Notes under the pieces: model-generated
Databases searched by the model: none
Told to the model about the DNA's origin: nothing
What the model saw: the letters and a program-made list of their open reading frames with translations, nothing else
Made by a program: the position numbers and the translations under genes
NCBI GenBank assembly: GCA_965262605.1
Contig: CBDHFN010000003.1
Span: 1,105,416-1,169,415 of the forward strand
From: Alphaproteobacteria bacterium
Lineage (GTDB): Bacteria > Pseudomonadota > Alphaproteobacteria > JASGCL01
DNA: 64,000 nt
Direction: 5' to 3'
Shown here: positions 8,570 to 49,613 of the stretch, piece after piece
Layout: each line of letters begins with the position of its first letter
Numbering within the stretch: position 1 is the first letter of the stretch

Positions 8570-9030
8570 AGCCAAGGATAAGTTTAGTTTTTCTTAGTTT
8601 ATTAGCGATTTTTAGTCAAGCATCGCCCGTTGCAGCGGACCCAAAAAATACAATTCAAGGCGCATTAAAAGGTAGTATTACCGGATTGGTTTTAGGAAAA
8701 ATTTTAGGAAATGGCGATAAAGCCGCCGCGGTGGGGGCGATTGGTGGTGCGCTGGCTGGTGCAGCTTTGGCAACGGGCACTAAGGATACGCCCACGCCAG
8801 CGAAATCAAGTAAGCAACCCGCGCAACCTGCGCAATATTCGGTTTTTGTGCAAAATGATTATACCGCGCCCGCACCTTTTGTTAAAATTGAAAATACCCC
8901 AATTGCGAATGGTAATTTATCGCCGATTAAGGCGCAACAAACCATACCTAAATTTACGAAATGCTTGCGCAATGAAAATAATGGTTATGATTGCCAAACG
9001 CAAAATGGCGATAAATATTTTTTAAAATAA
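8566..9030 (+). CDS. glycine-zipper (17 kDa-antigen-like) outer-membrane lipoprotein family protein
   Basis: Signal peptide, then GxxxGxxxG glycine zipper (GAIGGALAGAALATG), a PAQ-rich linker and a C-terminal Cys pair. Confidence 0.5.
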   Translation: MKPRISLVFLSLLAIFSQASPVAADPKNTIQGALKGSITGLVLGKILGNGDKAAAVGAIGGALAGAALATGTKDTPTPAKSSKQPAQPAQYSVFVQNDYTAPAPFVKIENTPIANGNLSPIKAQQTIPKFTKCLRNENNGYDCQTQNGDKYFLK

Positions 9031-9046: not shown

Positions 9047-9811
9047 TCACTTAAAGCTTTGGACAAGCGAACCACAAATTAGCACCCAGCCATCAACCAT
9101 CACAAAAAATATTATCTTAAACGGCAAAGAAATGGCGGCGGGTGGTAATAATTGCATGCCCATGGACACTAAAATTGAGGCAATCGCCATATCTATCACT
9201 AAAAAAGGCACAAAAATCAAAAAACCAATTTCAAATGCTCGTTTTACTTCGGAAATCATGAAGGCGGGCAATAAAACCCGCAAAGGCACGGTATCTATGG
9301 TGGTGGCTTTGTCAATATTTGCCAAATTAAGAAAAAGCCCAATCTCTTTTTCGCCGACATTGCGCGACATAAACGCGTGCATGGGTTTAATGGCTCGTTC
9401 CAAGGCAACTTCTTCGGTGATTTTTTGGGCAATTAAAGGGATTACTGCATCATTGTAAATTTTGGTAAAAGTTGGCTCCATCACAAAAAAAGTTAAAAAT
9501 ACCGCCAAGGCAATAATTACCATATTGGGCGGCGCGGTTTGCGTGCCAATGGCTTGACGCAAAAATGAAAGCACAACGACAATGCGCGTAAAGCTTGTCA
9601 TCATCACTAAAATACTGGGCGCAATGGAAAGCACGGTTACCACGACAATTAATTGGAATAACCTTGCGGTTACTGAACCGCCGCCTTGCCCAAAATTAAG
9701 TGATAGGGTTTGCGCCATTATCGGTTCGGCAAATAATGCCAAAATAGCAATGGGTATTATCCAGAAAATCCGATATTTTTTAATCGTATCAATGGTGATT
9801 TTATTTCTCAT
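9047..9811 (-). CDS. fliP: flagellar type III export apparatus protein FliP
   Basis: 254 aa, a signal peptide followed by the conserved FliP TM core (…MGMQLLPP…). Confidence 0.9.
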   Translation of the reverse strand: MRNKITIDTIKKYRIFWIIPIAILALFAEPIMAQTLSLNFGQGGGSVTARLFQLIVVVTVLSIAPSILVMMTSFTRIVVVLSFLRQAIGTQTAPPNMVIIALAVFLTFFVMEPTFTKIYNDAVIPLIAQKITEEVALERAIKPMHAFMSRNVGEKEIGLFLNLANIDKATTIDTVPLRVLLPAFMISEVKRAFEIGFLIFVPFLVIDMAIASILVSMGMQLLPPAAISLPFKIIFFVMVDGWVLICGSLVQSFK

Positions 9812-10139
9812 TTTCTAAGATTTTCTTGAAATTTTTGACGGGTTTTATGGTTTTTTTCTCGTAATTATGGGTTGAAATTGGCATGATTGTGTCGCCTTGA
9901 GGCGATATTAAAATGAAGAATTCTTCGCCTTCTTTGTCAATGACTATTAATTTTCGCTTGGCATCAAGCATAATTTGGTCGGTGATTTGCAATTTTCCAC
10001 TAAATTTATTGCCAAAAAGCGGATTTTTATATTTTTTTAACAATAAACCCATGCCGTAAATAACCGACAAAACTAAGCCTAGCATTAAAAACATATTAAT
10101 ATATGCGGAATAATCCATGATTGTCTCTCTCTTAATCAA
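9801..10139 (-). CDS. fliO: FliO-like small single-TM protein preceding fliP
   Basis: 112 aa, one N-terminal TM helix, 11-nt overlap with the fliP start. Assignment is by position and architecture only. Confidence 0.5.
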   Translation of the reverse strand: MIKRETIMDYSAYINMFLMLGLVLSVIYGMGLLLKKYKNPLFGNKFSGKLQITDQIMLDAKRKLIVIDKEGEEFFILISPQGDTIMPISTHNYEKKTIKPVKNFKKILENEK

Positions 10140-13256: not shown

Positions 13257-14423
13257 TTATGTTCTTTGAATCGTATAATTGCTTCTGAACGGCAACATGG
13301 TAATATTATCGGCAAATTTGTCAGAAATGTTATTTTGGCAATCTTGATATTGAGGTTTTGATTGAATTGCAAGATGCCAAAAATGTTGAGCAAGAATATC
13401 ATTGCCTTGCCATTGCTTGGCAATCGCGTAGTTATTGTATAAAGCAGCATCAATTTCGTTAGTTAATATCATGTTAAGTTTTTCATTGGCTAAAATCGGC
13501 AATCCCAAATTCAAGTAATTAACACCCATCGCGAAATGCGATAAATAAAATAAATCGCGCTGATAGCCTTGATGCACAAGCTTATCAATATCAGGTATTT
13601 TAGATAATTCATGCAAAATTTCGTTTGATTCGTGAAAATACCCGCAAAACTGCTTAAATGAACTTAAAATCCATAATTGCATCGGTTTAGGAATCATTGA
13701 TTGGCTTAATGTGTTTTTAACTTTATCAAAAGGTAATAATCGGTAATTATGGGTTAAATTACGCTTAATTAACGGAAATTTTGATGAAATTGAGCCGGGT
13801 TGATTGCGATATTCGTATAAAAAATCATCGCAATATGAAATTTTTGCATGATTTAAAATTGCTTGCAATTTAAAAAAATAATCCTCGCCAGAAAGAGAAT
13901 AGGGTGAAAATGGATATTTTCTGGCAAATTCCGTATTAAATCCATGGCAAATGGCGGTCGGTTGCCAATGGCGTTCAAATTCAAAATAAATACCATGGGG
14001 TTGTTTTATAAAATCCGCAATTTTAAAAGCCGAAATTGATTGATTGGCAATATCATTAATGGTAAAATTAGGGTAAATTAAATCGCATTCTTGTTCGGCA
14101 AAGATTTGCAAATAAGTTTCAGCCGCATGGGCGGGTAAAATATCATCACTATCAAGCCACATACCATATTTAGTTTGAATTTGATTAATCGCATATTGCC
14201 GCAAATGCCCCAATGAAACCCGTGTTGGAATTTTTTCAATGGTGCAATTGTGAAAATTACAATCGCGCACGATTTTCAATGTATCATCGGAACTTTGGTC
14301 GTCAATGATTAATATTTTTGCGACATTATTAGCAAAAGCCGATAATATGCTTTCTTTGATGGTTTTTTCGGCATTGCGCGCCACCATACATATCGTCATA
14401 TCATGGTGAATATTTTTCGTCAT
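13257..14423 (-). CDS. family-2 glycosyltransferase with C-terminal extension
   Basis: GT2 N-domain (ICMVARNAEKTI...ILIIDDQSSDDT...DSDD) followed by about 150 aa of helical repeat-like sequence. Confidence 0.7.
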   Translation of the reverse strand: MTKNIHHDMTICMVARNAEKTIKESILSAFANNVAKILIIDDQSSDDTLKIVRDCNFHNCTIEKIPTRVSLGHLRQYAINQIQTKYGMWLDSDDILPAHAAETYLQIFAEQECDLIYPNFTINDIANQSISAFKIADFIKQPHGIYFEFERHWQPTAICHGFNTEFARKYPFSPYSLSGEDYFFKLQAILNHAKISYCDDFLYEYRNQPGSISSKFPLIKRNLTHNYRLLPFDKVKNTLSQSMIPKPMQLWILSSFKQFCGYFHESNEILHELSKIPDIDKLVHQGYQRDLFYLSHFAMGVNYLNLGLPILANEKLNMILTNEIDAALYNNYAIAKQWQGNDILAQHFWHLAIQSKPQYQDCQNNISDKFADNITMLPFRSNYTIQRT

Positions 14424-16504
14424 TCTTTCAAATGCACAAACATGGCGGTAATATCATCGCTTTGGTCGTGTCCATTTACAAATTCTTCAATGGCGTGCAT
14501 CATAAAATTCATATTTTCGGCAACACCTTTGTTAAAATCAGTATTGTTTAGCACATTAAGCACGCGCGCTTCCCCAAATAATTCTTCGTTTTTGTTAAAT
14601 GCCTCGGTTACCCCATCAGTGAATAAGAATAATCGGTCGCCTTTATTAAATGGAATAGTAATTTGGCTATATTCAATGTCTGGCATGATAGCCGTCACTA
14701 AGTCACCCGTTGATTGCAAAAATTCAATATCCTTGCCGTTATTGCGGATAATTGCAGGCGGGTTATGCCCGGCATTACAATATTCAAATGTGCCATTTTT
14801 AAAATCTATAATGCCATAAAATAAGGTGACAAAAAAGTTATCTTGGTTATTCGCGGCTAATAAATTGTTGGATTTTTGCACGGTTTCTGCGGCAGTCGCG
14901 CAATTTTGCGCAAAAACTTGCAGCACGGTTTTAGAAACCATCATAAATAATGCCGATGGCACACCTTTGTCCGAGACATCGCCAACTAAGAATCCTAGGC
15001 GATTATCATCAATCATAAAATAATCATAAAAATCACCACCCACGGCTTTTGAAGGCTTTAACAGAGCTTGTAATTCAATTTTTTCATGGTTAAAGCTTGC
15101 GGCAGGAACATAAGAGAGCTGCACTCTTCTTGCTATATCAAGCTCCTTTTGTATAGCCATAAATCGCGTTTGCGTGGCAAGTGCCTCTTTTAATTCGTCA
15201 ATCACTTCATTTAATTTTGATTGTTTTGATATTAAGCTTGTGCCTAATTTGCGCAAAGTCAAAGCAAGCGAGCCAAGTTCGTTGTTTTTTTGATGGTCAT
15301 CAGGCGAATTAATGTTTTTTTCGTTTAAGTTATGAAAATGAAAACTTAACTCCATTTTATCAGTTTGGTCTAAAACATCGCTTAGCTTGAAAATTTCTTC
15401 CTTAATAATTTTTTCGGTTCTTAATCGTTGCTTGACGCGCGAACGGCGCACTAACCAAAGATCTAAAAGCTGCTCACGCAGAATTTCAATGGCATTAAGC
15501 ATTTTATTAATTTCTGGAGTTTTAATATTACTGGTAATAACATGCGACGCATCGCCCCTTGAAAGATTTTCCAATACATTTGTGCAAATTTCCAAAGGTT
15601 GCAATGATTTATACATAATATATCGGACAAACCAAAGGCATAAAAACATAATTAAGATAAAACTACCAGCATATGTATATTGCAAATATAAAATGTCTTT
15701 GCTATTTTCAGTAGTGTCTTTTAATAAAACTAAATATGTTTTTTGATTGTTAAATACCTTGTCCATGGGAATTGTCGTGGCTGTATAAGTATAATTGCCG
15801 TCTTTTAGGTCAATCAATCGGTGGTCGTTGTCAATTATAATGGAATTGGCAATGTTTTTCCATACTTGCGTATCAATGCCTTCAATAATTCCACCATTGC
15901 GATTAACAATATAAACATGAGATTGCGTTTGATTCGCCAGCAATTCCAAAATGCTAACGACTGATTCCGCAATAACACCAACCCCAACAACTTCATAATT
16001 TTTTTCATTAATTATGGGAAATATATAAGTTAAAAATAAATGGCGGTTTTCATTATAGCCAAAACCATATTCCGCGCTTTTTTGATTGAGAACTTTTTCA
16101 ATTAATTTCTCGCTTACCGGGCTTATCGGGTTAAGATTGGACGAAGAACGATATTCAATTTTTCGTTCCAAATTAAAAATTTCAATGAATTTCTTGCCAT
16201 GGTTCAAATCATTTTCTAATATAGATTTAGAAAATAATTCATTGATTTTTATGCTTTTATTGGTATCAGTATCATTGGTTAGAATTTTAGCAACTTCTTT
16301 ACCTAATTTATTAATAATTTGAATGTTAGCGTCAAGCTTGTTATTGGTAATTCTTCGCCATATTTGATTTTTATCCGAAACTATAGTTTCAGTGAATTTA
16401 TTTTTAAATAAATTTTCTTGGTAATTAAACATCAGATGATTTGCACCACTAAGGCTTATAATCATGAACATAAATACGATAGTGATTTTATTCGTAATGG
16501 TCAT
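14420..16504 (-). CDS. membrane sensor with periplasmic domain, HAMP and C-terminal PP2C (SpoIIE/RsbU-type) serine phosphatase
   Basis: Two TM helices flank a roughly 250-aa periplasmic domain; HAMP-like segment; C-terminal PPM motifs (GDFYDY...VGDVSDKGVPSALFM...FTDGVTEA...DDIT). Confidence 0.75.
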   Translation of the reverse strand: MTITNKITIVFMFMIISLSGANHLMFNYQENLFKNKFTETIVSDKNQIWRRITNNKLDANIQIINKLGKEVAKILTNDTDTNKSIKINELFSKSILENDLNHGKKFIEIFNLERKIEYRSSSNLNPISPVSEKLIEKVLNQKSAEYGFGYNENRHLFLTYIFPIINEKNYEVVGVGVIAESVVSILELLANQTQSHVYIVNRNGGIIEGIDTQVWKNIANSIIIDNDHRLIDLKDGNYTYTATTIPMDKVFNNQKTYLVLLKDTTENSKDILYLQYTYAGSFILIMFLCLWFVRYIMYKSLQPLEICTNVLENLSRGDASHVITSNIKTPEINKMLNAIEILREQLLDLWLVRRSRVKQRLRTEKIIKEEIFKLSDVLDQTDKMELSFHFHNLNEKNINSPDDHQKNNELGSLALTLRKLGTSLISKQSKLNEVIDELKEALATQTRFMAIQKELDIARRVQLSYVPAASFNHEKIELQALLKPSKAVGGDFYDYFMIDDNRLGFLVGDVSDKGVPSALFMMVSKTVLQVFAQNCATAAETVQKSNNLLAANNQDNFFVTLFYGIIDFKNGTFEYCNAGHNPPAIIRNNGKDIEFLQSTGDLVTAIMPDIEYSQITIPFNKGDRLFLFTDGVTEAFNKNEELFGEARVLNVLNNTDFNKGVAENMNFMMHAIEEFVNGHDQSDDITAMFVHLKE

Positions 16505-17514
16505 GGCAAATATCCAACTATCTTAAATTGCTTTAATTGCGTGTATGAAGGATATTCATTCAATGCTTTAACAGCTTTAATATTTAGGGTGGCGAAATAT
16601 TCACTTGGGTTATAAAATTTAATGCTTTGGGGCGGGATTTGCCGAAATAAAATATCTTCGGTAAGTTTGCCCGCCGATTTACCAATACCCGTTAAATTGG
16701 AAACAATGCCAAATAAAGCTTTGCCTTCAAGCAACGGCGTTTCATAGGTGCTGAATACTGGAATTTTTTGTAATGTCGCAAAATGTGTAAATTTTGCTTG
16801 ATTATCAATGATGAATTTATCGGTGCCTAAATAAATTACATCAACATTATTTATTTTTAACTCCTCAAAAATTTGCTCCATTGAAAATAAAGATGGTTTG
16901 CCGTTAATGTCTTGCCCAATTTTTGCCTCATGAAAATTAATATTTTGTTGCCGAAGTTTTGTGATTAATTCGGTTTTATTAAAAACTGAAATAGGGTCAT
17001 TGGGGTTATAAACTACGCCGACTTTGGTAAATTTTTTAAAATCAAATAAACTGCTTAATTGCAAATCAATGGGGGCAAAATTGCTAATTCCAACGATGTT
17101 TCGTTCGGAACTTAAATATGACGCAATAATGCCATACTCCACCGAATAAGGTAAATTTACAAAAATACCGGGAATATTGGTGATAAATTTGTCCGATTGA
17201 TTTTTGTAATCACTAATTGTGCCAAAAATTAATTTAGTCGCCTCCGCACCATTTGTATAAACAAAATCAGGGTTTAAAGATTTGATAATATTAACTAAAT
17301 TTGATGGGTTTTGTTGATAATCTCTTAACGAATATTGCGTAATTTTAGTCGCAATTCTTCGTAAATTTAAGTAATTTTCAAATCCCTTTTCAATATGCGT
17401 GGGTAAGTCTGGAATGACTTGGACGATGATAAATGGATCGTTAATATCGCCTTTTTTTGCCCAAGATAAATTAGGCAAATATACTAACGCAAGAATTAAT
17501 ATAAATTTAAACAT
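16501..17514 (-). CDS. periplasmic binding protein of the ABC_sub_bind/COG2984 family (no cognate permease or ATPase adjacent)
   Basis: Signal peptide MFKFILILALVYLPNLSWA; two-lobed binding-protein pattern. Confidence 0.55.
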   Translation of the reverse strand: MFKFILILALVYLPNLSWAKKGDINDPFIIVQVIPDLPTHIEKGFENYLNLRRIATKITQYSLRDYQQNPSNLVNIIKSLNPDFVYTNGAEATKLIFGTISDYKNQSDKFITNIPGIFVNLPYSVEYGIIASYLSSERNIVGISNFAPIDLQLSSLFDFKKFTKVGVVYNPNDPISVFNKTELITKLRQQNINFHEAKIGQDINGKPSLFSMEQIFEELKINNVDVIYLGTDKFIIDNQAKFTHFATLQKIPVFSTYETPLLEGKALFGIVSNLTGIGKSAGKLTEDILFRQIPPQSIKFYNPSEYFATLNIKAVKALNEYPSYTQLKQFKIVGYLP

Positions 17515-19582
17515 GAGCCACCTTGAAATGCCGATTGGTAAATAATAACCAAATTATCATCATACTTAAACAAATTAATAGGGTAATTAAGAAATTATTA
17601 ATTGTTGCAAAATCATAAAACAGCCCGCTTATTAAAACACAAATGATGGACATGCTATAAAAAGTTTTGGATTTTATGATGACGCATGCTTGGATTTTTT
17701 CTGGATTATCTTTGCATATTTTCATGATGGTTTTATTAAAATCATTGCTTAAAATCGTATAGCTTACGCCCCATAAAAATACAGCATAATAAATATACGA
17801 ATTGTGAAATAAAATTAAAATAATACCAATCATAATTGCCAAAATGCCGATAATAAATCGGTTGGCGTTTTGCAATTTATTCCATGAATTTAAATTTTGT
17901 ATATTTTTGAAACAAGCAAATCCTAAGGCGTATAAGCAAAAACATAAACCGATTTGCGTAAAACTTTGGCTGGTTTTGAATAAATATAACGGCATAAAAA
18001 ACAACATTAATGAATAGCTTATCATCTTAATAGGCATTTCTACGCTTAACAACATAGAATAAATTTGGAATTTTTCATATTTGCTTAAAATATTTTTGGT
18101 GCGCAAAAATATGTTGATATTATTGATTTTGATGGTTGGCAAATCAATAAAAATTAAATAAATAATTGCAAATAAAAATATTCCGCTCATAATAATAAAA
18201 ACACTATTCATGGATATATTATCGGCAATAATTCCCCCCAATAATGGCGAAATAGAAAATGCCATAATAATGTATTTTTTATATGAAAAATTATGGTTAT
18301 ATGGATTAATTTCTGAATTATTAATATATTGCATTATTGTTGAAATAATGATTCCAAAGCTTAAACCCATAAAAACTCTAATCAAGATAATATAAAATAA
18401 ATTATTTGCATAATAAAGAATTACACAAGAAGCAAGCAAGGCGAACAAGGAGCATATTAATATAGATTTTGGCGAATATCGCGCATATAAAATTTGCGTG
18501 TATTGTTGCCCAATAGTTTTCATGATTATGAAACCGATAAACATGATTGCGATTGCGCTGCCTTCATGAATTTGCCAATTTAATTGGCTGGGATTAATTA
18601 TAAATGTTGGCAATATACCAGCCATTAAACCAAAACCTGCAAAAATTAAAAACAATGGAATAATGAAAGTTTCTAATGAAAATAATTTTTCGGGTATTTC
18701 ATGACCAAGCTTGCTTGTTTTAATTTTTTCATTCATCTCGTCAAGTAAATTTGTTAAGGCAATACCCTTTTCGGGATCAATTTGCGATTCAACCGCTTCG
18801 TTAGTTTCTTGAATTATATCAATAAAATATTCATTCTTGTTTTTAACAAATTGATTAATTTGCTGGCTAAATTTACCAATTTCATCGGTTTGATTAATAA
18901 ATAAATATCGCGAATAATTGCCATTTTTTAATCGTTCAATAAAATTCAAAATAAACGAGATATTATTAATAATTTTGGAATTAATTGCCCAAAATGTAAA
19001 GCAAACTGAAAGCCACACGCTGATGAATATAATAAAAATTAACTCAAAACCTATTTGTTCTAAAATATAACTGAAAAAATTATCTTTTAAATAAATTTTA
19101 ACTTCGCCTTCTTTATTTTCGGTGGAATAATAATCAAAAACAAAATTTGGTTTATTTTGAAAATTAAATTGTTCGTTTTTTTGCACGAATTGTTTGATGA
19201 TTTCATCGTCAGCATTCGTGATGGCGATGGCATAAAATGTTGGATTTTTTGCAAAATAATTGATGATTTCTTGGTCAAATCCCTTGATTTTACTGATGTC
19301 AAGCCCGTAATAAGCATATTTTGATATATCATTGGAGATAGCAACCCCAGTAATTTGGGCATTATTTTTGATGGTTGTTTCAATTTGATTGACCACAATT
19401 GTGTATGAAAATAAAAAAACAAGAAATATTAACAGCGTGCAAATTACGGCTAATAAAATCTTGATTTTTTTATATGCGATTGCCAATATATCCCGTGACT
19501 TATCGTCTTTTAAAAAATCAATATCATTTTTGGCAAGCGGTAATAAATTTAAGCCATTTAAAAAAGCATGGAATTTTATCAT
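17507..19582 (-). CDS. membrane protein: sensor-like N-terminus (TM-periplasmic-TM-HAMP) fused to a roughly 12-TM MFS-like transporter domain
   Basis: 691 aa; HAMP-like helix pair after the second TM; C-terminal 400 aa of repeated TM helices with MFS-like loops. Confidence 0.5.
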   Translation of the reverse strand: MIKFHAFLNGLNLLPLAKNDIDFLKDDKSRDILAIAYKKIKILLAVICTLLIFLVFLFSYTIVVNQIETTIKNNAQITGVAISNDISKYAYYGLDISKIKGFDQEIINYFAKNPTFYAIAITNADDEIIKQFVQKNEQFNFQNKPNFVFDYYSTENKEGEVKIYLKDNFFSYILEQIGFELIFIIFISVWLSVCFTFWAINSKIINNISFILNFIERLKNGNYSRYLFINQTDEIGKFSQQINQFVKNKNEYFIDIIQETNEAVESQIDPEKGIALTNLLDEMNEKIKTSKLGHEIPEKLFSLETFIIPLFLIFAGFGLMAGILPTFIINPSQLNWQIHEGSAIAIMFIGFIIMKTIGQQYTQILYARYSPKSILICSLFALLASCVILYYANNLFYIILIRVFMGLSFGIIISTIMQYINNSEINPYNHNFSYKKYIIMAFSISPLLGGIIADNISMNSVFIIMSGIFLFAIIYLIFIDLPTIKINNINIFLRTKNILSKYEKFQIYSMLLSVEMPIKMISYSLMLFFMPLYLFKTSQSFTQIGLCFCLYALGFACFKNIQNLNSWNKLQNANRFIIGILAIMIGIILILFHNSYIYYAVFLWGVSYTILSNDFNKTIMKICKDNPEKIQACVIIKSKTFYSMSIICVLISGLFYDFATINNFLITLLICLSMMIIWLLFTNRHFKVAHV

Positions 19583-26807: not shown

Positions 26808-27074
26808 CCCTGCCTACTTTATTTTATGCCATAATACATATATCAAATCATAATGCAAGATTTTTTTTTGTTTCAATTTTTTTAATAATGCAAATGGTGT
26901 GAATAATTATTATAAACCCTGATTCTTCAAATAATATTAAAAATTATCTGCGCATTCGGAAAGTAATATTTTAAGTTTAAGGGGGGATTTTTCTCTGTGC
27001 TAGCTCTAACATCATGGCTTGAAATAGTCTTTTGACTATAAATGATTTAATTTATGATTTAATTATATATTTAT

Positions 27075-27104
27075 TTGACTTATGATGAAGATTAAACTAT
27101 TATA
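27075..27104 (+). promoter_or_regulatory. possible promoter for the RTX-like lipoprotein gene (TTGACT-18-TATTAT)
   Basis: Hexamers at 27075-27080 and 27099-27104 inside a 380-bp AT-rich intergenic region. Confidence 0.25.
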
Positions 27105-27295
27105 AATTGAGTGTATGGTTTATTTTAATGTTATTTTTCGTAAGTTTAATTTTATATATAAACATATATATAAAATTAGAGTGGAAATAAATGTTTAGGT
27201 ATTATTTTTTGCCAAAATTCCAACGATTAATAAAAAAAGTCGCTGAATGGGATAATTTTTGGTATAAGGCGCAACGCAACCAGATAAGAAAAATT

Positions 27296-29503
27296 ATGGT
27301 ATCAAACAATCTCAATTTTAGCTTGTCTGTTATATCTTTAAGTTTTTTGCTGGCTTGTTCTAATTCAAAAAAATCAGAAAATATCACATTAATTGAAGAA
27401 TTATCAACTTTTGCGACAAATAATCAAGCCACAATAATTAAAGATTTTACCACTATTAAAGAGGGGCAAGCGGATGCCGTGGGTATTTCTAATAATCAAA
27501 TTGCATCTGGTGTTAAATTAAATGCCGCCGAATTAAAAAATGGTGTGATTTTCACGGGAACTATTTCAAAATCACTTAATTCTGGCGAAAATGTCAAGGT
27601 AACGCTGGGCGGTGTAAGTGTCATTGCGGTGGTTTCAGGCACAATTTGGAGTGCCGTTTTTGATTCGGATATGGTTAATATACCGAATAATTTAAATGCA
27701 GATTTAACTGCCGAAATTGTCAATATATCAGGACAGCAAGGAGTCATATTAAGCGCAACCACAATTAATAAAATTATTATTGATCAAATTGCACCAAATG
27801 CCCCAAGCCTAAAATTAAGCGCAGGTATTTCAGACGGCGCAACCCAAAGTGAAGCAATAGCCCAAACTGGTGTCGTTTTGGTTGCGGGTGAATCGGGCGC
27901 AACAATTGTCATTACGATTACGAATAATACTCAAATCATCACAAAAACTATATTATCAGCGGGCAATAATGAAACGCCCATAGTTTTAACCCAATCCGAT
28001 ATAACCACGCTTGGAATTGGTTTAATATCGGTAACTGCTGTGGCAACTGATGTATCTGGCAATCCGAGTTTACCTGCGAGCATAAGTTTTAATTTGACTA
28101 GTATTGTCCCGTTAAGTGCGAATCCCCCGATTATAAATGCTGTAAACATTAATGCGAATGGAAATTTAGACATAATTTTTGATGAAGCGACAATTGGCGA
28201 ACTAAGCGCGGCTCTGCCCAATGATATTGTTGCCCAAAATCCGACTATGACAACAGCAACCATCAAAATTGCGGGTTTAATAACAAATAATATTAACGGA
28301 TTTAATTTAACCGATTCTACGGGTAATGAAACGCATTATTTGAAACAATCCACGGCAACCGCCGATAATGATATTATAATTGGCACTTCGGGCAATGATA
28401 ATTCATTATTGGGTGGTGCTGGACGGGATATTATTTTGGGCGGTGCGGGCAATGATACTATTGATGGTGGTGCAGGGGTTGATTTTGTATTTGGGCAATC
28501 CGGGAATGATATTTTAGTATTTGATGCAACTGATGCTAAAATTGATGGCGGCGTGGGTGATGATACATTAAAAGTAAATAATGCAGCGACTTTAACCATA
28601 AATAGTGGTAATTTAATAAATATAGAGGATGTTGATGCGTCAGCGTCAAATGCTATCGTTAATATTACCGGTGATAATGGGGCAAATATTATTATTGGTG
28701 GTCATAATAATGATATTTTAAATGGTGCTGATGGCGCCGATCAATTATCAGGTGGCGATGGAAATGATAGTATTAACGGGGGGAATGATGCGGATAATAT
28801 TTCGGGCGGCGGCGGCGATGATATATTAAATGGCGGTAATGGTGGAGATAATTTAATCGCCGAAGATGGCAATGATACGATAAATGGCGGTAATGGCGGT
28901 GATAATTTAAATGGTGGCTTGGGTATGGATATTTTAACGGGTGGCGCGGGTGATGATAATTTAAATGGCGGTAATGGTAATGATATATTTAATCTTGATT
29001 TATCGCTCGGCATTGATACTATCGCCGATTTTGGTGGGTCAAGCGGATTAGAAACTGATATTATGCAAATATCAGGTTTATCACCATCAAGTGCCCCCAT
29101 AGTTGCGCAAAATTCAGGGGTTATTGGCAATATTTCCCAAGCATTTACAGAAAATGATACGGATAATATAAGCATCGCCAATGCAAAATTTTATATTATT
29201 GATGTTGCGGGAGTTTTAGATTTTGATGGTATTGGCAATAATGGCGGAAATTTTGTCAATATGGACGGGGCGGGGATTATGGCGAATTTTGTGGCATCTA
29301 ATGGTAAGGCGTTTAATGCAAATGTTATTGCCAATGACAAAGCCGTGTTTTTATTCGCCAATGGTTCGGGTGAAGCGCAATTATGGTTATTTAACTCGGG
29401 TGATTCATCGGTTGATGCAACTGATTTTACTAAAATTGCGAGTTTATTAGATTCATCATTTGACTTTCGTGCATTTAATCATCAGCATATTGAATTTATT
29501 TGA
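27296..29503 (+). CDS. large surface lipoprotein with Ig-like repeats and RTX-type (hemolysin-type) calcium-binding nonapeptide repeats
   Basis: Start at the ATG at 27296 gives the lipobox LLAC. Central repeated beta-rich modules. C-terminal run of GGxGxDx[LIF] repeats (GGAGNDTIDGGAGVD..., GGNGGDNL..., GGAGDDNLNGGNGNDIF). Confidence 0.7.
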   Translation: MVSNNLNFSLSVISLSFLLACSNSKKSENITLIEELSTFATNNQATIIKDFTTIKEGQADAVGISNNQIASGVKLNAAELKNGVIFTGTISKSLNSGENVKVTLGGVSVIAVVSGTIWSAVFDSDMVNIPNNLNADLTAEIVNISGQQGVILSATTINKIIIDQIAPNAPSLKLSAGISDGATQSEAIAQTGVVLVAGESGATIVITITNNTQIITKTILSAGNNETPIVLTQSDITTLGIGLISVTAVATDVSGNPSLPASISFNLTSIVPLSANPPIINAVNINANGNLDIIFDEATIGELSAALPNDIVAQNPTMTTATIKIAGLITNNINGFNLTDSTGNETHYLKQSTATADNDIIIGTSGNDNSLLGGAGRDIILGGAGNDTIDGGAGVDFVFGQSGNDILVFDATDAKIDGGVGDDTLKVNNAATLTINSGNLINIEDVDASASNAIVNITGDNGANIIIGGHNNDILNGADGADQLSGGDGNDSINGGNDADNISGGGGDDILNGGNGGDNLIAEDGNDTINGGNGGDNLNGGLGMDILTGGAGDDNLNGGNGNDIFNLDLSLGIDTIADFGGSSGLETDIMQISGLSPSSAPIVAQNSGVIGNISQAFTENDTDNISIANAKFYIIDVAGVLDFDGIGNNGGNFVNMDGAGIMANFVASNGKAFNANVIANDKAVFLFANGSGEAQLWLFNSGDSSVDATDFTKIASLLDSSFDFRAFNHQHIEFI
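28330..29010 (+). repeat. array of RTX nonapeptide (GGxGxDxUx) coding repeats
   Basis: More than 20 degenerate 27-bp coding repeats; this also creates a spurious proline-rich ORF on the minus strand. Confidence 0.6.
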
Positions 29504-29624: not shown

Positions 29625-30584
29625 ATGTCATTATTAGATGCAAAACCGATATATAAACCTTTTCATTACCCATGGGCATATGAAGCATGGTTGATGCAAC
29701 AAAAATTACATTGGCTTCCCGAAGAAGTTTCTTTGGGTGAGGATATTAAAGATTGGAATAAAAAACTCACGAAGGGTGAGATTAACTTGTTAACGCAAAT
29801 TTTCAGATTTTTTACCCAAGCGGATGTAGAGGTGAATAATTGCTATATGCGCCATTATTCAAGAATTTTTAAGCCAACCGAAGTTTGCATGATGTTAGCG
29901 GCTTTTTCGTCCATGGAAACCGTGCATATCGCCGCTTATTCTTATTTATTAGACACAATCGGCATGCCCGAATCGGAATATTCGGCGTTTTTGTCTTATC
30001 AAGAAATGAAGGCAAAATATGAATATATGCAAAAATGGGGTGGCAAGACAAATCGTGATATTGCGCGCACGATGGCGGTTTTTGGTGCCTTTACCGAAGG
30101 GTTGCAATTATTCGCGTCTTTTGCGATTTTGATGAATTTTCCGCGCAAAAATAAAATGAAAGGCATGGGGCAGATTGTTACTTGGTCGGTGCGCGATGAA
30201 ACGCTGCATACAATTTCAATTATTCGCCTGCATAATACTTTTATTGAAGAAAATCCAGAAATTTGGGACGCGGAATATCGTGCCGAATTATTGACAATTT
30301 GCCATGAAATTATTGAACATGAAGACGCTTTCATTGATTTAGCCTTTGCTATGGGCGATGTTGATGGTTTAAGTGCCGATGAAGTTAAATTATATATTAG
30401 ATATATCGCCGACCGAAGATTGCGGCAATTAAATCTTGAGCCATATTATATGATTGAGAAAAATCCATTACCATGGATGGATTCCATGTTAAATGGCTTG
30501 GAACATACGAATTTTTTTGAAAATCGTGCGACCGAATATTCAAAAGCGGCAACTCTTGGCACTTGGGACGAAGCATTTGAATAA
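29625..30584 (+). CDS. nrdB: class Ia ribonucleotide reductase small (beta, R2) subunit
   Basis: Di-iron ligand motifs and the radical-Tyr region (SSMETVHIAAYSY). nrdA is not adjacent. Confidence 0.85.
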   Translation: MSLLDAKPIYKPFHYPWAYEAWLMQQKLHWLPEEVSLGEDIKDWNKKLTKGEINLLTQIFRFFTQADVEVNNCYMRHYSRIFKPTEVCMMLAAFSSMETVHIAAYSYLLDTIGMPESEYSAFLSYQEMKAKYEYMQKWGGKTNRDIARTMAVFGAFTEGLQLFASFAILMNFPRKNKMKGMGQIVTWSVRDETLHTISIIRLHNTFIEENPEIWDAEYRAELLTICHEIIEHEDAFIDLAFAMGDVDGLSADEVKLYIRYIADRRLRQLNLEPYYMIEKNPLPWMDSMLNGLEHTNFFENRATEYSKAATLGTWDEAFE

Positions 30585-36887: not shown

Positions 36888-38408
36888 ATGGCAAAGAAAA
36901 AAATTGATTTTTTATTTGTAAATCCAAATAGCTCGCATCAGTCATATCAAGTTCTTGCAAATAAATTTAATGCAATTGAACCGCCGACTTGGGCGGTTTT
37001 ACTGGCGACAAGCCTTAATTCTAAGGGTTTTAAGTCAGAAATTTTAGATTGCGATGCTTTAAGACTTTCTTTGAATCAATCTTTAGAAGAAATAATCGCT
37101 TATAATCCGCGTATGGTTGTTATGATGCTTTATGGGCAAAACCCCAATGCAGGCACAAGCTCAATGATTCAAGCAATACCATTAGCTGAATTAATAAAAT
37201 CGCAAAATGCCGATATTAAAATTGTGATGGGTGGTTCGCATTCACAGGCTTTGCCGCGTCAAGTTATTGCGTTTCCATGTGTTGATTTTGTCTTGATAAA
37301 CGAAGGGGTGCAATCGTTATTTGCCCTTGGATTAAGCAATTTAAAAGATAATTTAGAAAATATTCCCAGTATTTTTTATAAATCAGATGGTAAAATTTGC
37401 CATTCTAACCATGCGAGCATTGTGTCATCAAGCGATTTAGATAAAGAATTACCGGGCTATGATTGGTCGCTTTTACCCGATTTAAATACCTATCGCGCGC
37501 ATTATTGGCATAATTTCTTTTCTGATGAAGGGCGTTCGCCTTTTACCGCGATTTATACTTCGCTTGGTTGCCAGTTTGCTTGCAGTTTTTGTATGATAAA
37601 TATTATTAACCGAACAAGTTTTGATGATACCGCCCATGCTGGACATTCATCAGGAATGCGATATTTTTCCCCAGAATTAATGTTGGCTGAATTTGATAAA
37701 TTAGCAAAATTAGGTGTAAAAAACATTCGCTTGTCCGATGAAATGTTTTTTCTTAACCGCAAGCATTATATTCCAATTTTAGAAGCAATTATTCAAAGAA
37801 AATATGATTTTAATATGTGGGCATATGCAAGAGTTGATTCGGTGCGCGAAGACCAATTAGCTTTATTTAGAAAGGCTGGCGTGCGCTGGATTGCGCTTGG
37901 CATTGAAACGGCTAATCAAAATGTCAGGCATGAGATTGAACGCGGAAAATTTAAACAAGTCAATGTGCGTGATATTGTTAAGTTAATTGAATCATATGAT
38001 ATTCATATTGTCAGTAATTTTATTTTTGGCTTGCCGAATGATTCCCTTCAAACAATGCGTGAAACCCTTGATTTAGCCAAGGAATTAAATACCGCGCATG
38101 CAAATTTTTATCCTGCTATGCCATTACCGGGTTCCCCGCTTTATATGCAGGCGTTGCAATCAGGCTGGCAACCATATGAAGATTTAGCAAAATATTCATT
38201 TTTATCCTATGAATCTTTACCTTTGGCAACTGAATTTTGCACGCCCCAAGAAATTTTAACATTTCGCGATAATGCTTGGCATGAATATTTTACTAACCCA
38301 ATTTTTTTAGATAAAATCGGAAAAAGCTTTGGTATGAAAAATAGAAGTAATATTGAAGAAATGACCAAATTAAAATTAAGAAGAAAAATTTTGGAAAATA
38401 ACGCATGA
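36888..38408 (+). CDS. B12-binding-domain radical SAM protein (class B rSAM)
   Basis: N-terminal cobalamin-binding Rossmann-like domain, then CQFACSFC (CxxxCxxC) about 220 aa in. Confidence 0.75.
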   Translation: MAKKKIDFLFVNPNSSHQSYQVLANKFNAIEPPTWAVLLATSLNSKGFKSEILDCDALRLSLNQSLEEIIAYNPRMVVMMLYGQNPNAGTSSMIQAIPLAELIKSQNADIKIVMGGSHSQALPRQVIAFPCVDFVLINEGVQSLFALGLSNLKDNLENIPSIFYKSDGKICHSNHASIVSSSDLDKELPGYDWSLLPDLNTYRAHYWHNFFSDEGRSPFTAIYTSLGCQFACSFCMINIINRTSFDDTAHAGHSSGMRYFSPELMLAEFDKLAKLGVKNIRLSDEMFFLNRKHYIPILEAIIQRKYDFNMWAYARVDSVREDQLALFRKAGVRWIALGIETANQNVRHEIERGKFKQVNVRDIVKLIESYDIHIVSNFIFGLPNDSLQTMRETLDLAKELNTAHANFYPAMPLPGSPLYMQALQSGWQPYEDLAKYSFLSYESLPLATEFCTPQEILTFRDNAWHEYFTNPIFLDKIGKSFGMKNRSNIEEMTKLKLRRKILENNA

Positions 38409-39301
38409 CAAATGATAATTATCATCTTGATAATATTAAAAAATTTGAAAGCAATCAAGCAAAATTAAATTTTTTAAAGGATGTTGCGCTTGGCGAATCG
38501 GGGGTTTTCAATAAATTTGGCAATCATTTTAATATTATAAAATTTGATGAATTTAAATGTAATTTAAAAGAAGTTTTTATCAATGAATTGATAGAGACAA
38601 ATTTGGTTAATGCCACAAATTTAGCCAAAATTAATTTTGATTTGGGCAAATTACACCAAATAATCGCCCAAAATGATCAAATTTTTGACCCTTCGGGCAG
38701 AAATAATTTTATGTCCCAAATTTTTCAATTGACAAAAATCAAAAATGCTTATGCTGATTTTGTTAAAACCACGATTGCGCCGTTAATTGGTGAATTTTTT
38801 TATTTTCAAGACCAGCCAACTATCCGCGTTAATTTTCCATTTCCGGCAAATTATAATAAACGGGCAAATTACCACATTGATTTAATGTTAGGGCATTTGC
38901 CAATTATTTATAATTTTTGGTGGTCGTTAAATAATGTTTATGGTTCAAATAGCCTCTCAGTTGCCGATTATGATTTTTCCATTAATTTATTGAAAAAATA
39001 TGATTGGAATTTTGCTAAATTAGTTTATGACATTGAATTTAATGACGATTTATATAATGAAATTCGCCACCATAGCATTGATTTAAAGCTTAATTTTGGT
39101 GATATTGCTGTATTTAGTCCATTATGTTTGCATGCAACCCAATATAATACAACTGATACGACAAGGGTAAGTTTTGATTGCCGATTTATTTTAAAATCAA
39201 AATATGAACAATTAAATTTAACATATAAAGGGCTTGGTAATAAACAAATGCCGATGCAGCCCGGATATTATTACAATTTAAATCCGATATATACGCCTTA
39301 G
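38405..39301 (+). CDS. PhyH-like Fe(II)/2-oxoglutarate dioxygenase family protein
   Basis: HxD (YHIDLM), a distal His (CLHATQ) and RxS (TRVSFD) in PhyH-like spacing; 4-nt overlap with the rSAM gene. Confidence 0.45.
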   Translation: MTNDNYHLDNIKKFESNQAKLNFLKDVALGESGVFNKFGNHFNIIKFDEFKCNLKEVFINELIETNLVNATNLAKINFDLGKLHQIIAQNDQIFDPSGRNNFMSQIFQLTKIKNAYADFVKTTIAPLIGEFFYFQDQPTIRVNFPFPANYNKRANYHIDLMLGHLPIIYNFWWSLNNVYGSNSLSVADYDFSINLLKKYDWNFAKLVYDIEFNDDLYNEIRHHSIDLKLNFGDIAVFSPLCLHATQYNTTDTTRVSFDCRFILKSKYEQLNLTYKGLGNKQMPMQPGYYYNLNPIYTP

Positions 39302-39427: not shown

Positions 39428-39898
39428 ATGCAAAAATATCCGGTTACCCGCCGTGGTTATGAAGCCATGTTGGCTGAAATGAAACAACTTAAATCGCACG
39501 ACAGACCCGCGGTAATACAAGCGATTGCAACCGCGCGCGAACATGGCGATTTGTCAGAAAATGCCGAATATTCTGCGGCACGGGAAAAGCAAAGCTTTAT
39601 TGAAGGGCGAATCGCCGAATTAGAAGATAAAATAAGCCGTGCCGAGATAGTTGACCCAGAAAAATTATCGGGAAATACCGTGCAATTTGGCGCGACCTTA
39701 AAATTAGCCGACCAAGACGACAAAGAGGTAATATATCAATTAGTTGGCGAAATTGAAGCCGATATTAGCAAAGGTAGATTATCGGTATCTTCACCGCTTG
39801 GACGGGCATTATTGGGCAAGAAAAAAGGGGCAAATTTCACTTTTTCAACACCCGGTGGCGCGAAAGATTACGAAATTTTAGAAATATCATATAAATAA
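39428..39898 (+). CDS. greA: transcription elongation factor GreA
   Basis: 156 aa with a GreA coiled-coil N-domain and FKBP-like C-domain. Confidence 0.9.
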   Translation: MQKYPVTRRGYEAMLAEMKQLKSHDRPAVIQAIATAREHGDLSENAEYSAAREKQSFIEGRIAELEDKISRAEIVDPEKLSGNTVQFGATLKLADQDDKEVIYQLVGEIEADISKGRLSVSSPLGRALLGKKKGANFTFSTPGGAKDYEILEISYK

Positions 39899-48212: not shown

Positions 48213-49613
48213 ATGCGGTTACAAGATTTTTTTGATAGTTTGCAATACAGAAATTATATTTTTTCTGAGATAATAATTAATGAAAAAATTGAAATATTTT
48301 ATGATTTATTGCCCGCATTGGAATTATTTGAATCGCAATCATATATTCGTGCATTTAACGAGTTTAATAAGCTTGAAAATCGTTCCAAACTTTATAATCG
48401 CATTAAATATTTTTATTTATTATTATGTAAATCGCAACTTATTATTAATGAAAATGAAATTAATAATATTGTCGCAAATTTTAATAAATTGCACCAAAAT
48501 TATGGCTGTATGGCTTCGTTATTTGAAATTGGGCAATTATTAGCGGCAAGTAATCCAGATGAAGCACTGAAATATTTCGCGTTATATTATGATAATAATT
48601 TAAACATGTTAAGAAATCTTGATTTTAGTGGCACATATCAGCAAACATTGGTTTTTATTGAATGTTATAGTAAATTTGTTGCAGAAAAACCTGATTTTAT
48701 TGACCCACAAAAAATTGGCATCAATGACATATCGGCACAAGAATCTCATTTTGATTTTAGTGATTATTTAATGTTTAACCCATACCCGCACGATAATAAA
48801 GTCGGCGATAGTTATATTTTGGCTTCGTTGTTAAAATATATTAAGGATAAATTCCAAAAGAAAATTATTGTTTTTACGCAAACGAATAAAATCCCAATAT
48901 TTAAATTTTATGATTATATTGATGCGGTTTTGCCGATGGAATCATATCAAAATATTGTATGGCAATTGCCAAAATCCAATAAATTCAAAATTGGGTCTGT
49001 GTTTCATTATCATTATGGATTCGCCCATATTTCCAATACGCCTTCGCCATATTTAAGTGATTTTTTAGCGCGAAAATTAGGCTTAAAAGATATTAACTTC
49101 GTTGCACCATATCAATCCAATTTGGCAATGAAAATTAATGCCTGTAAAATGCTTCATCAGCTTAATTTAACGAAGAATAAAACAATAATTTTTAATAAAT
49201 ATTCCAATACCATAAAGCTTAAAATATTGGGTGATGATTTTTGGATTAATCTTGCTATACAATGCCAAAATCTTGGTTATGAAGTGGTATTTAATGATTC
49301 GCAAGCTTTTCTTGATTTTAAAACTTGTTTTGTGCCATATCAATATTTAGCCGAATTTGCAGAGCTTTGCGGGTGTTTAATAACCGTGCGCACAGGAATT
49401 TGCGATATAATTGCCAATCAGAATCCTGATGGCAAGATGATTATTATCATGAATAATCAACAACAATTCCCAATGGGTTATTTTTCATTAAAATTAATGT
49501 ATAATAATCAAAATATTCTTGAATGCCATGAAAATAATATTGATGAATTGCATCAACAAATTTTTGAATATCTTGACAATAATTTCGCTTTGGGTAATAA
49601 GAAAAACACTTGA
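48213..49613 (+). CDS. hypothetical protein with a helical-repeat N-half and a GT9-like C-half (third paralog of the TPR-GT9 family)
   Basis: V-G-D-S motif (NKVGDSYILASLLKYI) aligned to the G[LF]GD motif of the ORFs at 11635-13191 and 54772-56094. Confidence 0.4.
   Translation: MRLQDFFDSLQYRNYIFSEIIINEKIEIFYDLLPALELFESQSYIRAFNEFNKLENRSKLYNRIKYFYLLLCKSQLIINENEINNIVANFNKLHQNYGCMASLFEIGQLLAASNPDEALKYFALYYDNNLNMLRNLDFSGTYQQTLVFIECYSKFVAEKPDFIDPQKIGINDISAQESHFDFSDYLMFNPYPHDNKVGDSYILASLLKYIKDKFQKKIIVFTQTNKIPIFKFYDYIDAVLPMESYQNIVWQLPKSNKFKIGSVFHYHYGFAHISNTPSPYLSDFLARKLGLKDINFVAPYQSNLAMKINACKMLHQLNLTKNKTIIFNKYSNTIKLKILGDDFWINLAIQCQNLGYEVVFNDSQAFLDFKTCFVPYQYLAEFAELCGCLITVRTGICDIIANQNPDGKMIIIMNNQQQFPMGYFSLKLMYNNQNILECHENNIDELHQQIFEYLDNNFALGNKKNT

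What the first reader, a model, noticed from the sequence alone, without database searches (positions are those of the whole stretch)
27296..29503. RTX-repeat calcium-binding protein with a lipoprotein signal and no adjacent type I secretion genes
The C-terminal third is a long run of GGxGxDx[LIF]x nonapeptides (hemolysin-type Ca-binding). The N-terminus from the ATG at 27296 has a lipobox (LLAC) rather than the uncleaved N-terminus typical of T1SS substrates. The protein ends in ...HQHIEFI rather than an obvious T1SS C-signal. No hlyB/hlyD/tolC genes flank it. This looks like a surface-anchored adhesin-like lipoprotein that uses RTX beta-roll repeats, which is an uncommon combination.
Basis: partly seen in the sequence, partly recalled or inferred. 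Interest (0 to 1): 0.5.

Follow-up and report, generated by a model that had tools for sequence, protein, structure and literature searches.

The report
Small RTX adhesin-like protein with lipobox
This gene encodes a small calcium-binding surface protein built from the same parts as giant bacterial "RTX adhesins", but it carries two conflicting export signals: a lipoprotein-type signal at its start and a typical type I secretion ending at its tail.

Summary
The ORF (27191/27296..29503, +) is real. It encodes an acidic protein (pI 4.05) with 20 RTX nonapeptides in two blocks (Pfam HemolysinCabind E 2.6e-24). The repeats cover 51-78% of the length and are followed by 169 non-repeat residues, so they are not the C-terminal third.

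An exhaustive HMMER search showed that the "orphan" N-terminal half contains Ig-like extender domains of giant T1SS RTX adhesins. The profile matches PDB 6xi3 (Lap) at E 2.4e-22, and the AF2 model has pLDDT 92.

The lipobox is not a chance feature. The only Cys in 770 residues directly follows the most hydrophobic 11-mer of the protein. That segment must be translated whichever start is used. None of 216 homologues has such an N-terminus.

The ending ...HIEFI fits the typical RTX/T1SS end: an acidic residue followed by hydrophobics, and [FLI][VAI] as the last two residues.

No T1SS gene lies in the 64-kb window. Unlinked substrates are known, so this says little, and the rest of the genome could not be searched.

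Best reading: an RTX-adhesin module set in which a lipid anchor replaces the retention module. The export route is unresolved. It is a moderately interesting variant seen in one genome only.

The parts
26808..27190 (.). AT-rich (about 23% GC) 383-bp intergenic region between the divergent livH-like gene and the RTX gene. It holds a sigma70-like site TTGACT-17-TATTAT at 27075-27103.
   Evidence: an in-frame TAA lies immediately before 27191
27191..27295 (+). Optional 35-codon N-terminal extension (MFRYYFLPKFQRLIKKVAEWDNFWYKAQRNQIRKI, pI 10.45). This is the start of the database gene model (P0001, 770 aa), but its codon usage looks non-coding.
   Evidence: Codon log-odds is -0.083 per codon; only 2 of 44 gene starts score that low. 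A weak SD-like GAGTGGA lies upstream.
27296..27358 (+). Lipoprotein-type signal MVSNNLNFSLSVISLSFLLA|C. It comprises the h-region, the LLAC lipobox, and the only Cys of the protein (27356-27358).
   Evidence: It must be translated: 27359-27478 is strongly coding and no ATG/GTG/TTG lies between 27348 and 27478.
27359..27475 (+). Ser/Asn/Lys-rich tether and linker (aa 57-95). It is too short to hold a retention module.
27476..27757 (+). Ig-like domain 1 (aa about 96-189). The match to adhesin Ig repeats is weak.
   Evidence: NCBIfam Ig_like_ice E 9e-4 and Ca_tandemer E 1.6e-3, both below cutoff. It matches tandem ~100-aa repeats of P0194, and several giant proteins align across both domains.
27758..28123 (+). 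BIg extender-type Ig-like domain 2 (aa 190-311). The match is strong.
   Evidence: A profile of 890 repeat copies scores E 1.3e-45. Homologues hit Pfam Big_13. Profile A1 hits PDB 6xi3 (Lap) at E 2.4e-22. The AF2 model has pLDDT 92 and a beta-sandwich fold. The Foldseek top hit is 6xi3, followed by Bap, MpIBP and SiiE.
28124..28357 (+). Unassigned segment (aa 312-389).
   Evidence: No significant match. The single-sequence AF2 model has low confidence here.
28358..28573 (+). RTX block 1: 8 nonapeptide units in register (aa 390-461).
28574..28669 (+). 32-aa spacer between the RTX blocks. It contains an ...INIEDVDAS... linker motif.
28670..28993 (+). RTX block 2: 12 nonapeptide units in register (aa 494-601). 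This is the only part of the full-length AF2 model with pLDDT above 70, and it shows regular short strands.
   Evidence: It aligns to CyaA RTX blocks and to lipase and serralysin beta-rolls in the PDB.
28994..29500 (+). 169-aa non-repeat C-terminal region (aa 602-770). It starts with a cap-like motif (LGIDTIADFGG), which aligns with the post-repeat segment of CyaA, and ends ...HIEFI. The stop codon is at 29501-29503.
   Evidence: No family match.

Best explanation
The gene encodes a roughly 75-kDa, very acidic, Ca2+-dependent cell-envelope protein. It is assembled from the modules of giant type-I-secreted RTX adhesins, with a lipoprotein signal where those adhesins carry their N-terminal retention module.

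Anatomy (shown):
- SPII-like signal with an LLAC lipobox
- short S/N/K-rich tether
- two Ig-like (BIg extender-type) domains
- about 80 unassigned residues
- 20 RTX nonapeptides in two blocks
- a 169-residue cap region ending E-F-I

Mechanism (inferred):
- The unfolded, Ca2+-free chain is exported through Sec.
- Cys56 (Cys21 from the 27296 start) is lipidated and the signal is cut by Lgt/LspA.
- Ser at +2 would send it by the Lol pathway to the outer membrane.
- Outside the cytoplasm, Ca2+ folds the RTX beta-roll and stiffens the Ig-like domains. This gives a short lipid-tethered stalk that acts as an adhesin or surface-matrix protein.
- The T1SS-like C-terminus is then either an inherited relic and folding cap, or still functional.
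For: - RTX repeats: Pfam E 2.6e-24; 20 units in register; beta-roll alignments to CyaA, lipase and serralysin.
- BIg extender domain: the exhaustive HMMER search found 304 hits, mostly 2-7.7-kaa proteins with up to 56 tandem copies. Supporting results: local profile E 1.3e-45; Big_13 in homologues; PDB 6xi3 Lap at E 2.4e-22; AF2 pLDDT 92 with Foldseek top hits among RTX adhesins.
- Signal and lipobox: PS00013 core pattern. The sole Cys of 770 aa sits at the lipobox, where only 5 positions in the first 60 residues and 23 of 760 overall have a compatible context. The single most hydrophobic 11-mer of 760 windows directly precedes that Cys.
- The segment must be translated.
- A genuine lipoprotein in the window (LpoB-like, MIKKLILPIVFLGLLSAC) shows that the organism uses this pathway.
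- No retention-module match, and only about 40 residues lie between the lipobox and the first Ig-like domain.
- 0 of 216 homologues have a comparable N-terminus, so the feature was newly acquired here.
Against: - From the 27296 start, the n-region has no Lys/Arg. From the 27191 start, Cys is at position 56. Each start therefore fails one accessory PROSITE rule.
- Leu at -2 of the lipobox is uncommon in the E. coli consensus (own knowledge).
- The h-region hydrophobicity (2.37) is at the low end of the signal peptides in this window.
- Everything else about the protein is typical of Sec-independent T1SS substrates, including a T1SS-type C-terminal ending (PMC3034196, PMC8861453).
- No orthologue exists to test conservation: the protein is a singleton cluster and the genome and metagenome scans found nothing.
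- SignalP and LipoP could not be run.
- Surface exposure is pure inference.
Confidence: 0.5

Rival explanations
1. It is an ordinary T1SS substrate. The protein is secreted C-terminus first by an ABC/MFP/TolC system encoded elsewhere in the 1.72-Mb genome. It is then released, or loosely held on the surface, as a small Ca2+-dependent adhesin or S-layer-like protein. The N-terminal hydrophobic segment and Cys are not processed by Lgt/LspA.
For: - The architecture (functional body, then RTX, then non-repeat tail) is canonical (PMC3034196).
- The last RTX unit lies 169 aa from the end, against a published median of 110 aa (PMC8861453).
- The terminal ...IEFI fits the acidic-plus-hydrophobic ending: 39/119 RTX homologues against 1/53 window proteins, p 1.2e-6. 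It also fits the [FLI][VAI] signature.
- P0101 ends ...ASIEFI.
- All relatives of the Ig-like domain are T1SS-type adhesins.
- Unlinked substrates are documented (PMC2275737).
- The lipobox is suboptimal.
Against: - The coincidence of the only Cys, the most hydrophobic segment and the N-terminal position is hard to explain by chance.
- A Sec-type signal emerges from the ribosome long before the C-terminal signal does (inference).
- None of 216 relatives has such an N-terminus.
- No T1SS gene lies within 27 kb upstream or 34 kb downstream.
- There is no match to the NCBIfam T1SS C-terminal target domain.
Confidence: 0.3
2. It is Sec-exported but not lipidated. The hydrophobic segment acts as an SPase I signal or as an uncleaved N-terminal membrane anchor. 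The RTX/Ig part then sits in the periplasm or is tethered to the inner membrane.
For: - The hydrophobic N-terminal segment is present.
- From the 27191 start, the 35-residue basic n-region followed by the h-region resembles a signal anchor.
- The lipobox deviates from the consensus.
Against: - A Cys exactly at +1 after L-L-A, as the sole Cys of the protein, points to SPII rather than SPI.
- Leu at -3 is poor for SPase I (own knowledge).
- Adhesin-type extender domains have no known periplasmic role.
Confidence: 0.1
3. It is a decaying remnant of a giant RTX adhesin gene (a C-terminal fragment), and the present N-terminus is fortuitous.
For: - It has only one or two extender domains, where relatives have up to 56.
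- It lies at a synteny break: the relative L001 has an unrelated 873-aa ORF at this position.
- It is a singleton.
Against: - The 2.3-kb reading frame is intact, with strong codon usage from 27359 onward.
- There is no upstream adhesin-like ORF or frame-shifted continuation, and a stop codon lies immediately before 27191.
- The RTX register is perfectly kept over 20 units.
Confidence: 0.07

Closest known systems
Giant T1SS RTX adhesins (LapA of Pseudomonas, MhLap of Marinobacter [PDB 6xi3], MpIBP of Marinomonas, SiiE, Bap)
   Same: It shares the BIg extender-type Ig-like domain: sequence profile E 2.4e-22 to 6xi3, with Foldseek top hits 6xi3, 7dm0, 5irb, 4p99 and 2yn3. It also shares the C-terminal RTX beta-roll followed by a non-repeat tail with a hydrophobic end, the very acidic composition, and the near absence of Cys.
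   Different: It is 735-770 aa, not 1,500 to over 7,000. It has one strong and one weak Ig-like domain rather than a long tandem array. It has no N-terminal retention module and carries a lipoprotein-type signal in its place. No identifiable ligand-binding domain was found.
Small unlinked T1SS substrates of Rhizobium PrsDE (Rap and cadherin-like proteins, NodO)
   Same: These are small Ca2+-binding, adhesion-related proteins with RTX or cadherin-like repeats. Their genes lie far from the secretion genes (PMC2275737).
   Different: Those proteins have no N-terminal signal peptide (SignalP probability 0.000 in PMC2275737). This one has an SPII-like signal.
Serralysin/lipase-type RTX proteins (PrtC, AprA, LipA)
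   Same: The RTX beta-roll aligns. The extreme C-terminus, an acidic residue followed by hydrophobic residues, resembles their terminal motif (own knowledge).
   Different: There is no catalytic domain. The 169-aa tail has no detectable similarity to Peptidase_M10_C.
Surface lipoproteins exported after Sec/Lgt/LspA (e.g. pullulanase PulA via T2SS, Slam-dependent lipoproteins)
   Same: The proposed route is the same: an N-terminal lipid anchor with the functional part displayed outside. This comparison rests on own knowledge and is an analogy only.
   Different: None of these is built from RTX and BIg modules. No T2SS or Slam gene was seen in the window.

Membership tests
RTX protein family (Pfam PF00353; Linhartova et al. 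2010, PMC3034196) | Tandem Gly/Asp-rich nonapeptides GGxGxDxUx | tested here: met
   HemolysinCabind E 2.6e-24, 85 bits against a cutoff of 23. Twenty units lie in register.
RTX protein family | Repeats lie in the C-terminal part and separate the protein body from an unprocessed non-repeat C-terminal signal of about 60 aa or more | tested here: met
   Repeats occupy aa 390-601 and the tail is aa 602-770. The ending fits the acidic-plus-hydrophobic and [FLI][VAI] signatures (PMC8861453).
RTX protein family | Sec-independent: no N-terminal signal peptide | tested here: not met
   A hydrophobic h-region plus lipobox is present and must be translated. SignalP itself was not available.
RTX protein family | Export by a dedicated T1SS (ABC, MFP, TolC-like), usually in the same locus | not testable with these tools
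   None is present in the 64-kb window.
RTX adhesins (LapA/MpIBP type; minimum criteria in bioRxiv 10.1101/2025.09.30.679566) | N-terminal retention module | tested here: not met
   There is no NCBIfam or Pfam retention-module hit. Only about 40 residues lie between the lipobox and the first Ig-like domain.
RTX adhesins | Tandem array of Ig-like extender domains | tested here: inconclusive
   There is one strong domain (E 1.3e-45) and one weak domain. Two domains are not an array.
RTX adhesins | C-terminal beta-roll with T1SS signal | tested here: met
   The function of the signal was not tested.
Bacterial lipoproteins (SPII; PROSITE PS00013/PS51257) | Lipobox pattern {DERK}(6)-[LIVMFWSTAG](2)-[LIVMFYSTAGCQ]-[AGS]-C after a hydrophobic h-region | tested here: met
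   SVISLSFLLAC matches. The h-region is the most hydrophobic 11-mer of the protein.
Bacterial lipoproteins | Accessory rules: Cys at position 15-35 and at least one K/R in the first 7 residues | tested here: inconclusive
   The 27296 start gives Cys21 but no K/R. The 27191 start gives K/R but Cys56. Codon usage mildly favours 27296.
Bacterial lipoproteins | Actual diacylglyceryl modification and LspA cleavage | not testable with these tools
   This needs palmitate labelling or a globomycin assay.
Pfam Big_13 (PF19077) bacterial Ig-like domain | Direct match above the gathering score | tested here: not met
   There is no Big_13 hit on the protein itself at E<=1. Its repeat-domain homologues do hit Big_13, and the fold and profile agree. 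It is therefore a divergent relative rather than a direct member.

The most novel reading that the evidence does not exclude
Both signals are functional. In that case the protein is a type-I-secretion-style RTX/BIg adhesin held on the cell by an N-terminal lipid or membrane anchor instead of a retention module. Equivalently, an RTX adhesin module set has been wholesale re-routed from T1SS to the Sec/lipoprotein pathway. Either way it would be a previously undescribed solution to surface retention of RTX adhesins.
Probability: 0.12. Interest if true: 0.7.

Novelty: new variant of a known kind. Interest (0 to 1): 0.38.

Why it matters
RTX proteins are textbook Sec-independent T1SS substrates. 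RTX adhesins are held on the cell by a dedicated N-terminal retention module that plugs the outer-membrane channel. A member of this module family with a credible lipoprotein signal in place of the retention module points to one of two things. Either the RTX beta-roll and BIg extenders can be deployed through the Sec/Lol route, or there is a different retention mechanism. If confirmed, genome-wide secretome predictions that equate RTX with T1SS would need adjusting. It would also provide a compact, roughly 75-kDa model of Ca2+-dependent adhesin extension. As it stands, this is a single unconserved gene in one genome with no experimental data.

Tried and rejected
1. Word-indexed homology searches with the N-terminal 400 aa and the C-terminal 172 aa found nothing. 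They also failed to return the source protein itself, so I treated them as artefacts. The exhaustive HMMER search then found 304 relatives of the N-terminal part.
2. Exact look-ups of the protein and of NrdB for genomic context returned nothing on record.
3. Two genome-contig scans, with the N-terminal domain and with CarA, gave no relatives. The source genome is not among the species representatives, so the taxon and a genome-wide T1SS search were not obtainable.
4. A metagenome scan with the N-terminal half found no orthologue.
5. A metagenome scan with NrdB found a relative at 87% identity (L001) with the same right flank. An unrelated ORF sits in place of the RTX gene, so conservation of the lipobox could not be tested.
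6. Single-sequence AF2 of the whole protein gave pLDDT 37.5. Only RTX block 2 was confident, so the model was unusable for the C-terminal tail.
7. No family or PDB sequence match was found for the 169-aa tail beyond the cap motif.
8. Cluster look-ups of ten neighbouring proteins to name the organism failed. Four are singletons at 90% identity with no names, and six are not in the collection.
9. Literature searches for RTX proteins with a lipobox or lipoprotein signal found no described case. This is a weak negative, because only open-access text is searched.
10. Promoter and terminator scans were not discriminating in this AT-rich region.
11. A search for the WGS prefix of L001 in papers found nothing.
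Full report
**The object**

A single ORF runs from ATG 27191 to the stop at 29501-29503 on the + strand (770 aa). An in-frame ATG lies at 27296, giving 735 aa. The 770-aa product is identical to a database protein (P0001) from a 1,718,193-bp contig. It forms a singleton cluster without a name. The window is 36.3% GC. The protein is very acidic (pI 4.05; 83 D+E against 30 K+R). It is rich in G, N, I, A, S and D, and has a single Cys.

**RTX repeats**

- Pfam reports only HemolysinCabind (E 2.6e-24, 85 bits against a cutoff of 23, six stretches).
- NCBIfam gives sub-threshold partial matches to RTX toxins, serralysins and an SMc04171-type repeat protein. All are confined to the repeat region.
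- In 9-residue register there are 8 units at aa 390-461, a 32-aa spacer containing an '...INIEDVDAS...' linker, and 12 units at aa 494-601.
- The repeats align with CyaA RTX blocks and with lipase, AlgE and serralysin beta-rolls in the PDB.
- Block 2 is the only confident part of a single-sequence AlphaFold model, and it shows regular short strands.
- The repeats are therefore real. However, they occupy 51-78% of the chain rather than the C-terminal third, and 169 non-repeat residues follow.

**The N-terminal half**

- Word-indexed searches reported no homologues. They also failed to recover the source protein, so I discounted them.
- Local BLAST showed that all 119 hits from the first search match only the RTX block.
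- An exhaustive HMMER search of 1.84 billion representatives with aa 57-400 gave 304 hits at E<=1e-3, of which 58 were at E<=1e-30. Most are proteins of 2,000-7,700 aa carrying up to 56 tandem copies of a ~110-aa unit that matches aa 190-311.
- A profile built from 890 such copies scores that segment at E 1.3e-45.
- The homologues hit Pfam Big_13.
- A 21-sequence profile (A1) hits PDB 6xi3, 'Large adhesion protein (Lap)', at E 2.4e-22 across its four tandem repeats. It also hits Bap entries.
- With that alignment, AlphaFold gives a beta-sandwich at pLDDT 92.
- The best Foldseek match of that model is again 6xi3, followed by Bap, MpIBP and SiiE, all of them giant adhesins; Lap, MpIBP and SiiE are RTX/T1SS adhesins.
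- The preceding segment (aa ~96-189) is a weaker Ig-like domain. NCBIfam gives Ig_like_ice at E 9e-4 and Ca_tandemer at E 1.6e-3, and there are tandem-repeat matches in P0194.
- Residues 312-389 remain unassigned.
- No retention module is detected.

**The N-terminus**

- From 27296 the sequence is MVSNNLNFSLSVISLSFLLAC|SNSKKSEN. It matches the PROSITE PS00013 core pattern.
- Three coincidences make chance unlikely:
  - The Cys is the only one in 770 residues, and only 23 of 760 positions (5 in the first 60) have a lipobox-compatible context.
  - The 11-mer directly before it is the single most hydrophobic of 760 windows.
  - It is followed by a Ser/Asn/Lys-rich tether.
- A bona fide lipoprotein in the window (LpoB-like...LLSAC) shows that the pathway is in use.
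- The start codon is unresolved.
  - 27296 gives Cys21 but no Lys/Arg in the n-region. 27191 gives a basic 35-residue n-region but Cys56. Each start therefore fails one accessory rule.
  - Codon usage of 27191-27295 is -0.083 per codon, against a gene mean of 0.20. Only 2 of 44 gene starts score that low, which mildly favours 27296.
  - The low GC (23-25%) of the intergenic region continues to about 27450.
- The segment 27359-27478 is strongly coding (0.336 per codon), and no ATG/GTG/TTG lies between 27348 and 27478. The hydrophobic and lipobox segment is therefore translated under any start.
- None of 216 Met-start homologues (104 RTX hits, 112 Ig-domain hits) has a lipobox. Only 3 have an equally hydrophobic 11-mer in their first 45 residues, and none of those resembles a signal peptide.

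**The C-terminus**

- The tail begins with a cap-like motif, 'GNDIFNLDLSLGIDTIADFGG', which aligns with the post-repeat segment of CyaA.
- The tail ends '...SSFDFRAFNHQHIEFI'.
- Among 119 RTX homologues, 39 end with an acidic residue followed by 2-4 hydrophobic residues. Examples are ...SDFIL, ...NIDFI and ...ASIEFI. Only 1 of 53 other proteins of this window ends this way (Fisher p 1.2e-6).
- 18 of the 119 homologues, against 0 of 53 window proteins, end with [FLI][VAI]. This protein fits both patterns.
- [FLI][VAI] at the last two positions is the published hallmark of RTX-type T1SS substrates. The published median distance from the last RTX motif to the C-terminus is 110 aa, compared with 169 here (PMC8861453).
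- No curated T1SS C-terminal domain model matches.

**Surroundings**

- Upstream, on the opposite strand, is a LivHMGF-type ABC importer.
- Downstream are nrdB, a CitMHS_2 transporter, polyprenyl synthase, carA and pyrD.
- Elsewhere in the window are dnaN, fliP, a SpoIIE-type phosphatase and a CoxL-like molybdoenzyme.
- No ORF long enough to encode a T1SS ABC exporter, MFP or TolC matches any such family. Three ORFs of 440-466 aa have no family at all.
- The absence of linked secretion genes is uninformative. [quoted passage not shown]
- The rest of the genome could not be reached.
- The conserved neighbours found in the protein collection (NrdB, GreA, FabF, Dps-like) are singletons at 90% identity, so the lineage has no close sequenced relative.
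- A metagenomic contig with NrdB at 87% identity (L001) keeps nrdB, CitMHS_2 and polyprenyl synthase. To the left of nrdB, however, it has an unrelated 873-aa orphan ORF and then bamA/ompH. The RTX gene therefore sits at a synteny break and has no orthologue there.

**Interpretation**

The protein combines the body and tail of a T1SS RTX adhesin with an N-terminus that looks like a lipoprotein signal. The two imply different export routes.

I favour the following (confidence 0.5): the lipobox is functional, and a lipid anchor substitutes for the missing retention module. RTX regions are unfolded without Ca2+ (PMC3034196), which would make them compatible with Sec. Ser at +2 would direct Lol sorting to the outer membrane under the E. 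coli rule (own knowledge). Ca2+ would then fold the beta-roll and stiffen the Ig-like domains.

The main rival (0.3) is ordinary T1SS export by an unlinked system, with an unprocessed N-terminus. Minor rivals are a non-lipidated Sec product (0.1) and a decaying fragment of a giant adhesin (0.07).

**Novelty and score**

Open-text literature searches found no described RTX protein with a lipobox. The RTX review treats Sec-independence as a family feature (PMC3034196).

This is best filed as a new variant of a known kind. It fails the retention-module and extender-array criteria for RTX adhesins (bioRxiv 10.1101/2025.09.30.679566), and it fails the 'no signal peptide' feature of RTX proteins, while sharing their modules.

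The evidence is purely computational, from one unconserved gene. Interest is moderate (0.38).

Noticed in passing
L001:5288-7909 (+), compared with window 27191-29503: A metagenomic relative (NrdB 87% identical) keeps the nrdB-CitMHS_2-polyprenyl synthase order. Where this window has the RTX gene and the liv operon, the relative has an unrelated 873-aa ORF with no Pfam family, followed by bamA/ompH. The slot upstream of nrdB is a variable synteny break.
   Followed up: partly
whole window (e.g. 29625-30584, 39428-39898, 56432-57694, 3085-3552): The conserved housekeeping proteins found in the collection (NrdB, GreA, FabF, Dps-like ferritin) are singleton clusters at 90% identity without names. 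Six other neighbours were not found in the 15-billion-protein collection at all. The source is a 1.72-Mb, ~36% GC genome with no close sequenced relative, and its taxon could not be determined.
   Followed up: partly
(queries window:27191-28390 and window:28985-29500): The word-indexed protein search returned no hits and did not even recover the source protein P0001. The exhaustive HMMER search later found 304 relatives of the same N-terminal region. Negative results from that tool on low-complexity, N/I/S-rich queries are unreliable.
   Followed up: yes
window 6590-9030 (+): A three-gene cluster next to fliP/fliO-like genes (9047-10139, -). It comprises an LpoB-domain lipoprotein (MIKKLILPIVFLGLLSAC), a 445-aa signal-peptide protein with no family, and a 154-aa YMGG Gly-zipper protein.
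   Followed up: no
window 14420-19582 (-): An apparent operon of a 691-aa MFS-domain protein, an ABC_sub_bind periplasmic binding protein and a 694-aa protein with a C-terminal SpoIIE (PP2C) phosphatase domain. This looks like an unusual sensor-phosphatase arrangement.
   Followed up: no
window 48213-49613 (+) and 54772-56094 (-): Two ORFs of 466 and 440 aa have no Pfam or NCBIfam match.
   Followed up: partly
window 30493-30584: The longest ORF of the CitMHS_2 transporter overlaps the end of nrdB by 92 nt. The Pfam match begins at residue 31, so the true start is probably a later codon.
   Followed up: no
window 36888-39301 (+): A B12-binding radical SAM protein is followed by a protein with a sub-threshold match to the 'sporadic carbohydrate cluster 2OG-Fe(II) oxygenase' family (TIGR04324, E 2.8e-21, below cutoff).
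   Followed up: no
window 2900-2975 (+): A single tRNA-Met (CAT) gene is the only Rfam or ARAGORN hit in the 64 kb.
   Followed up: yes
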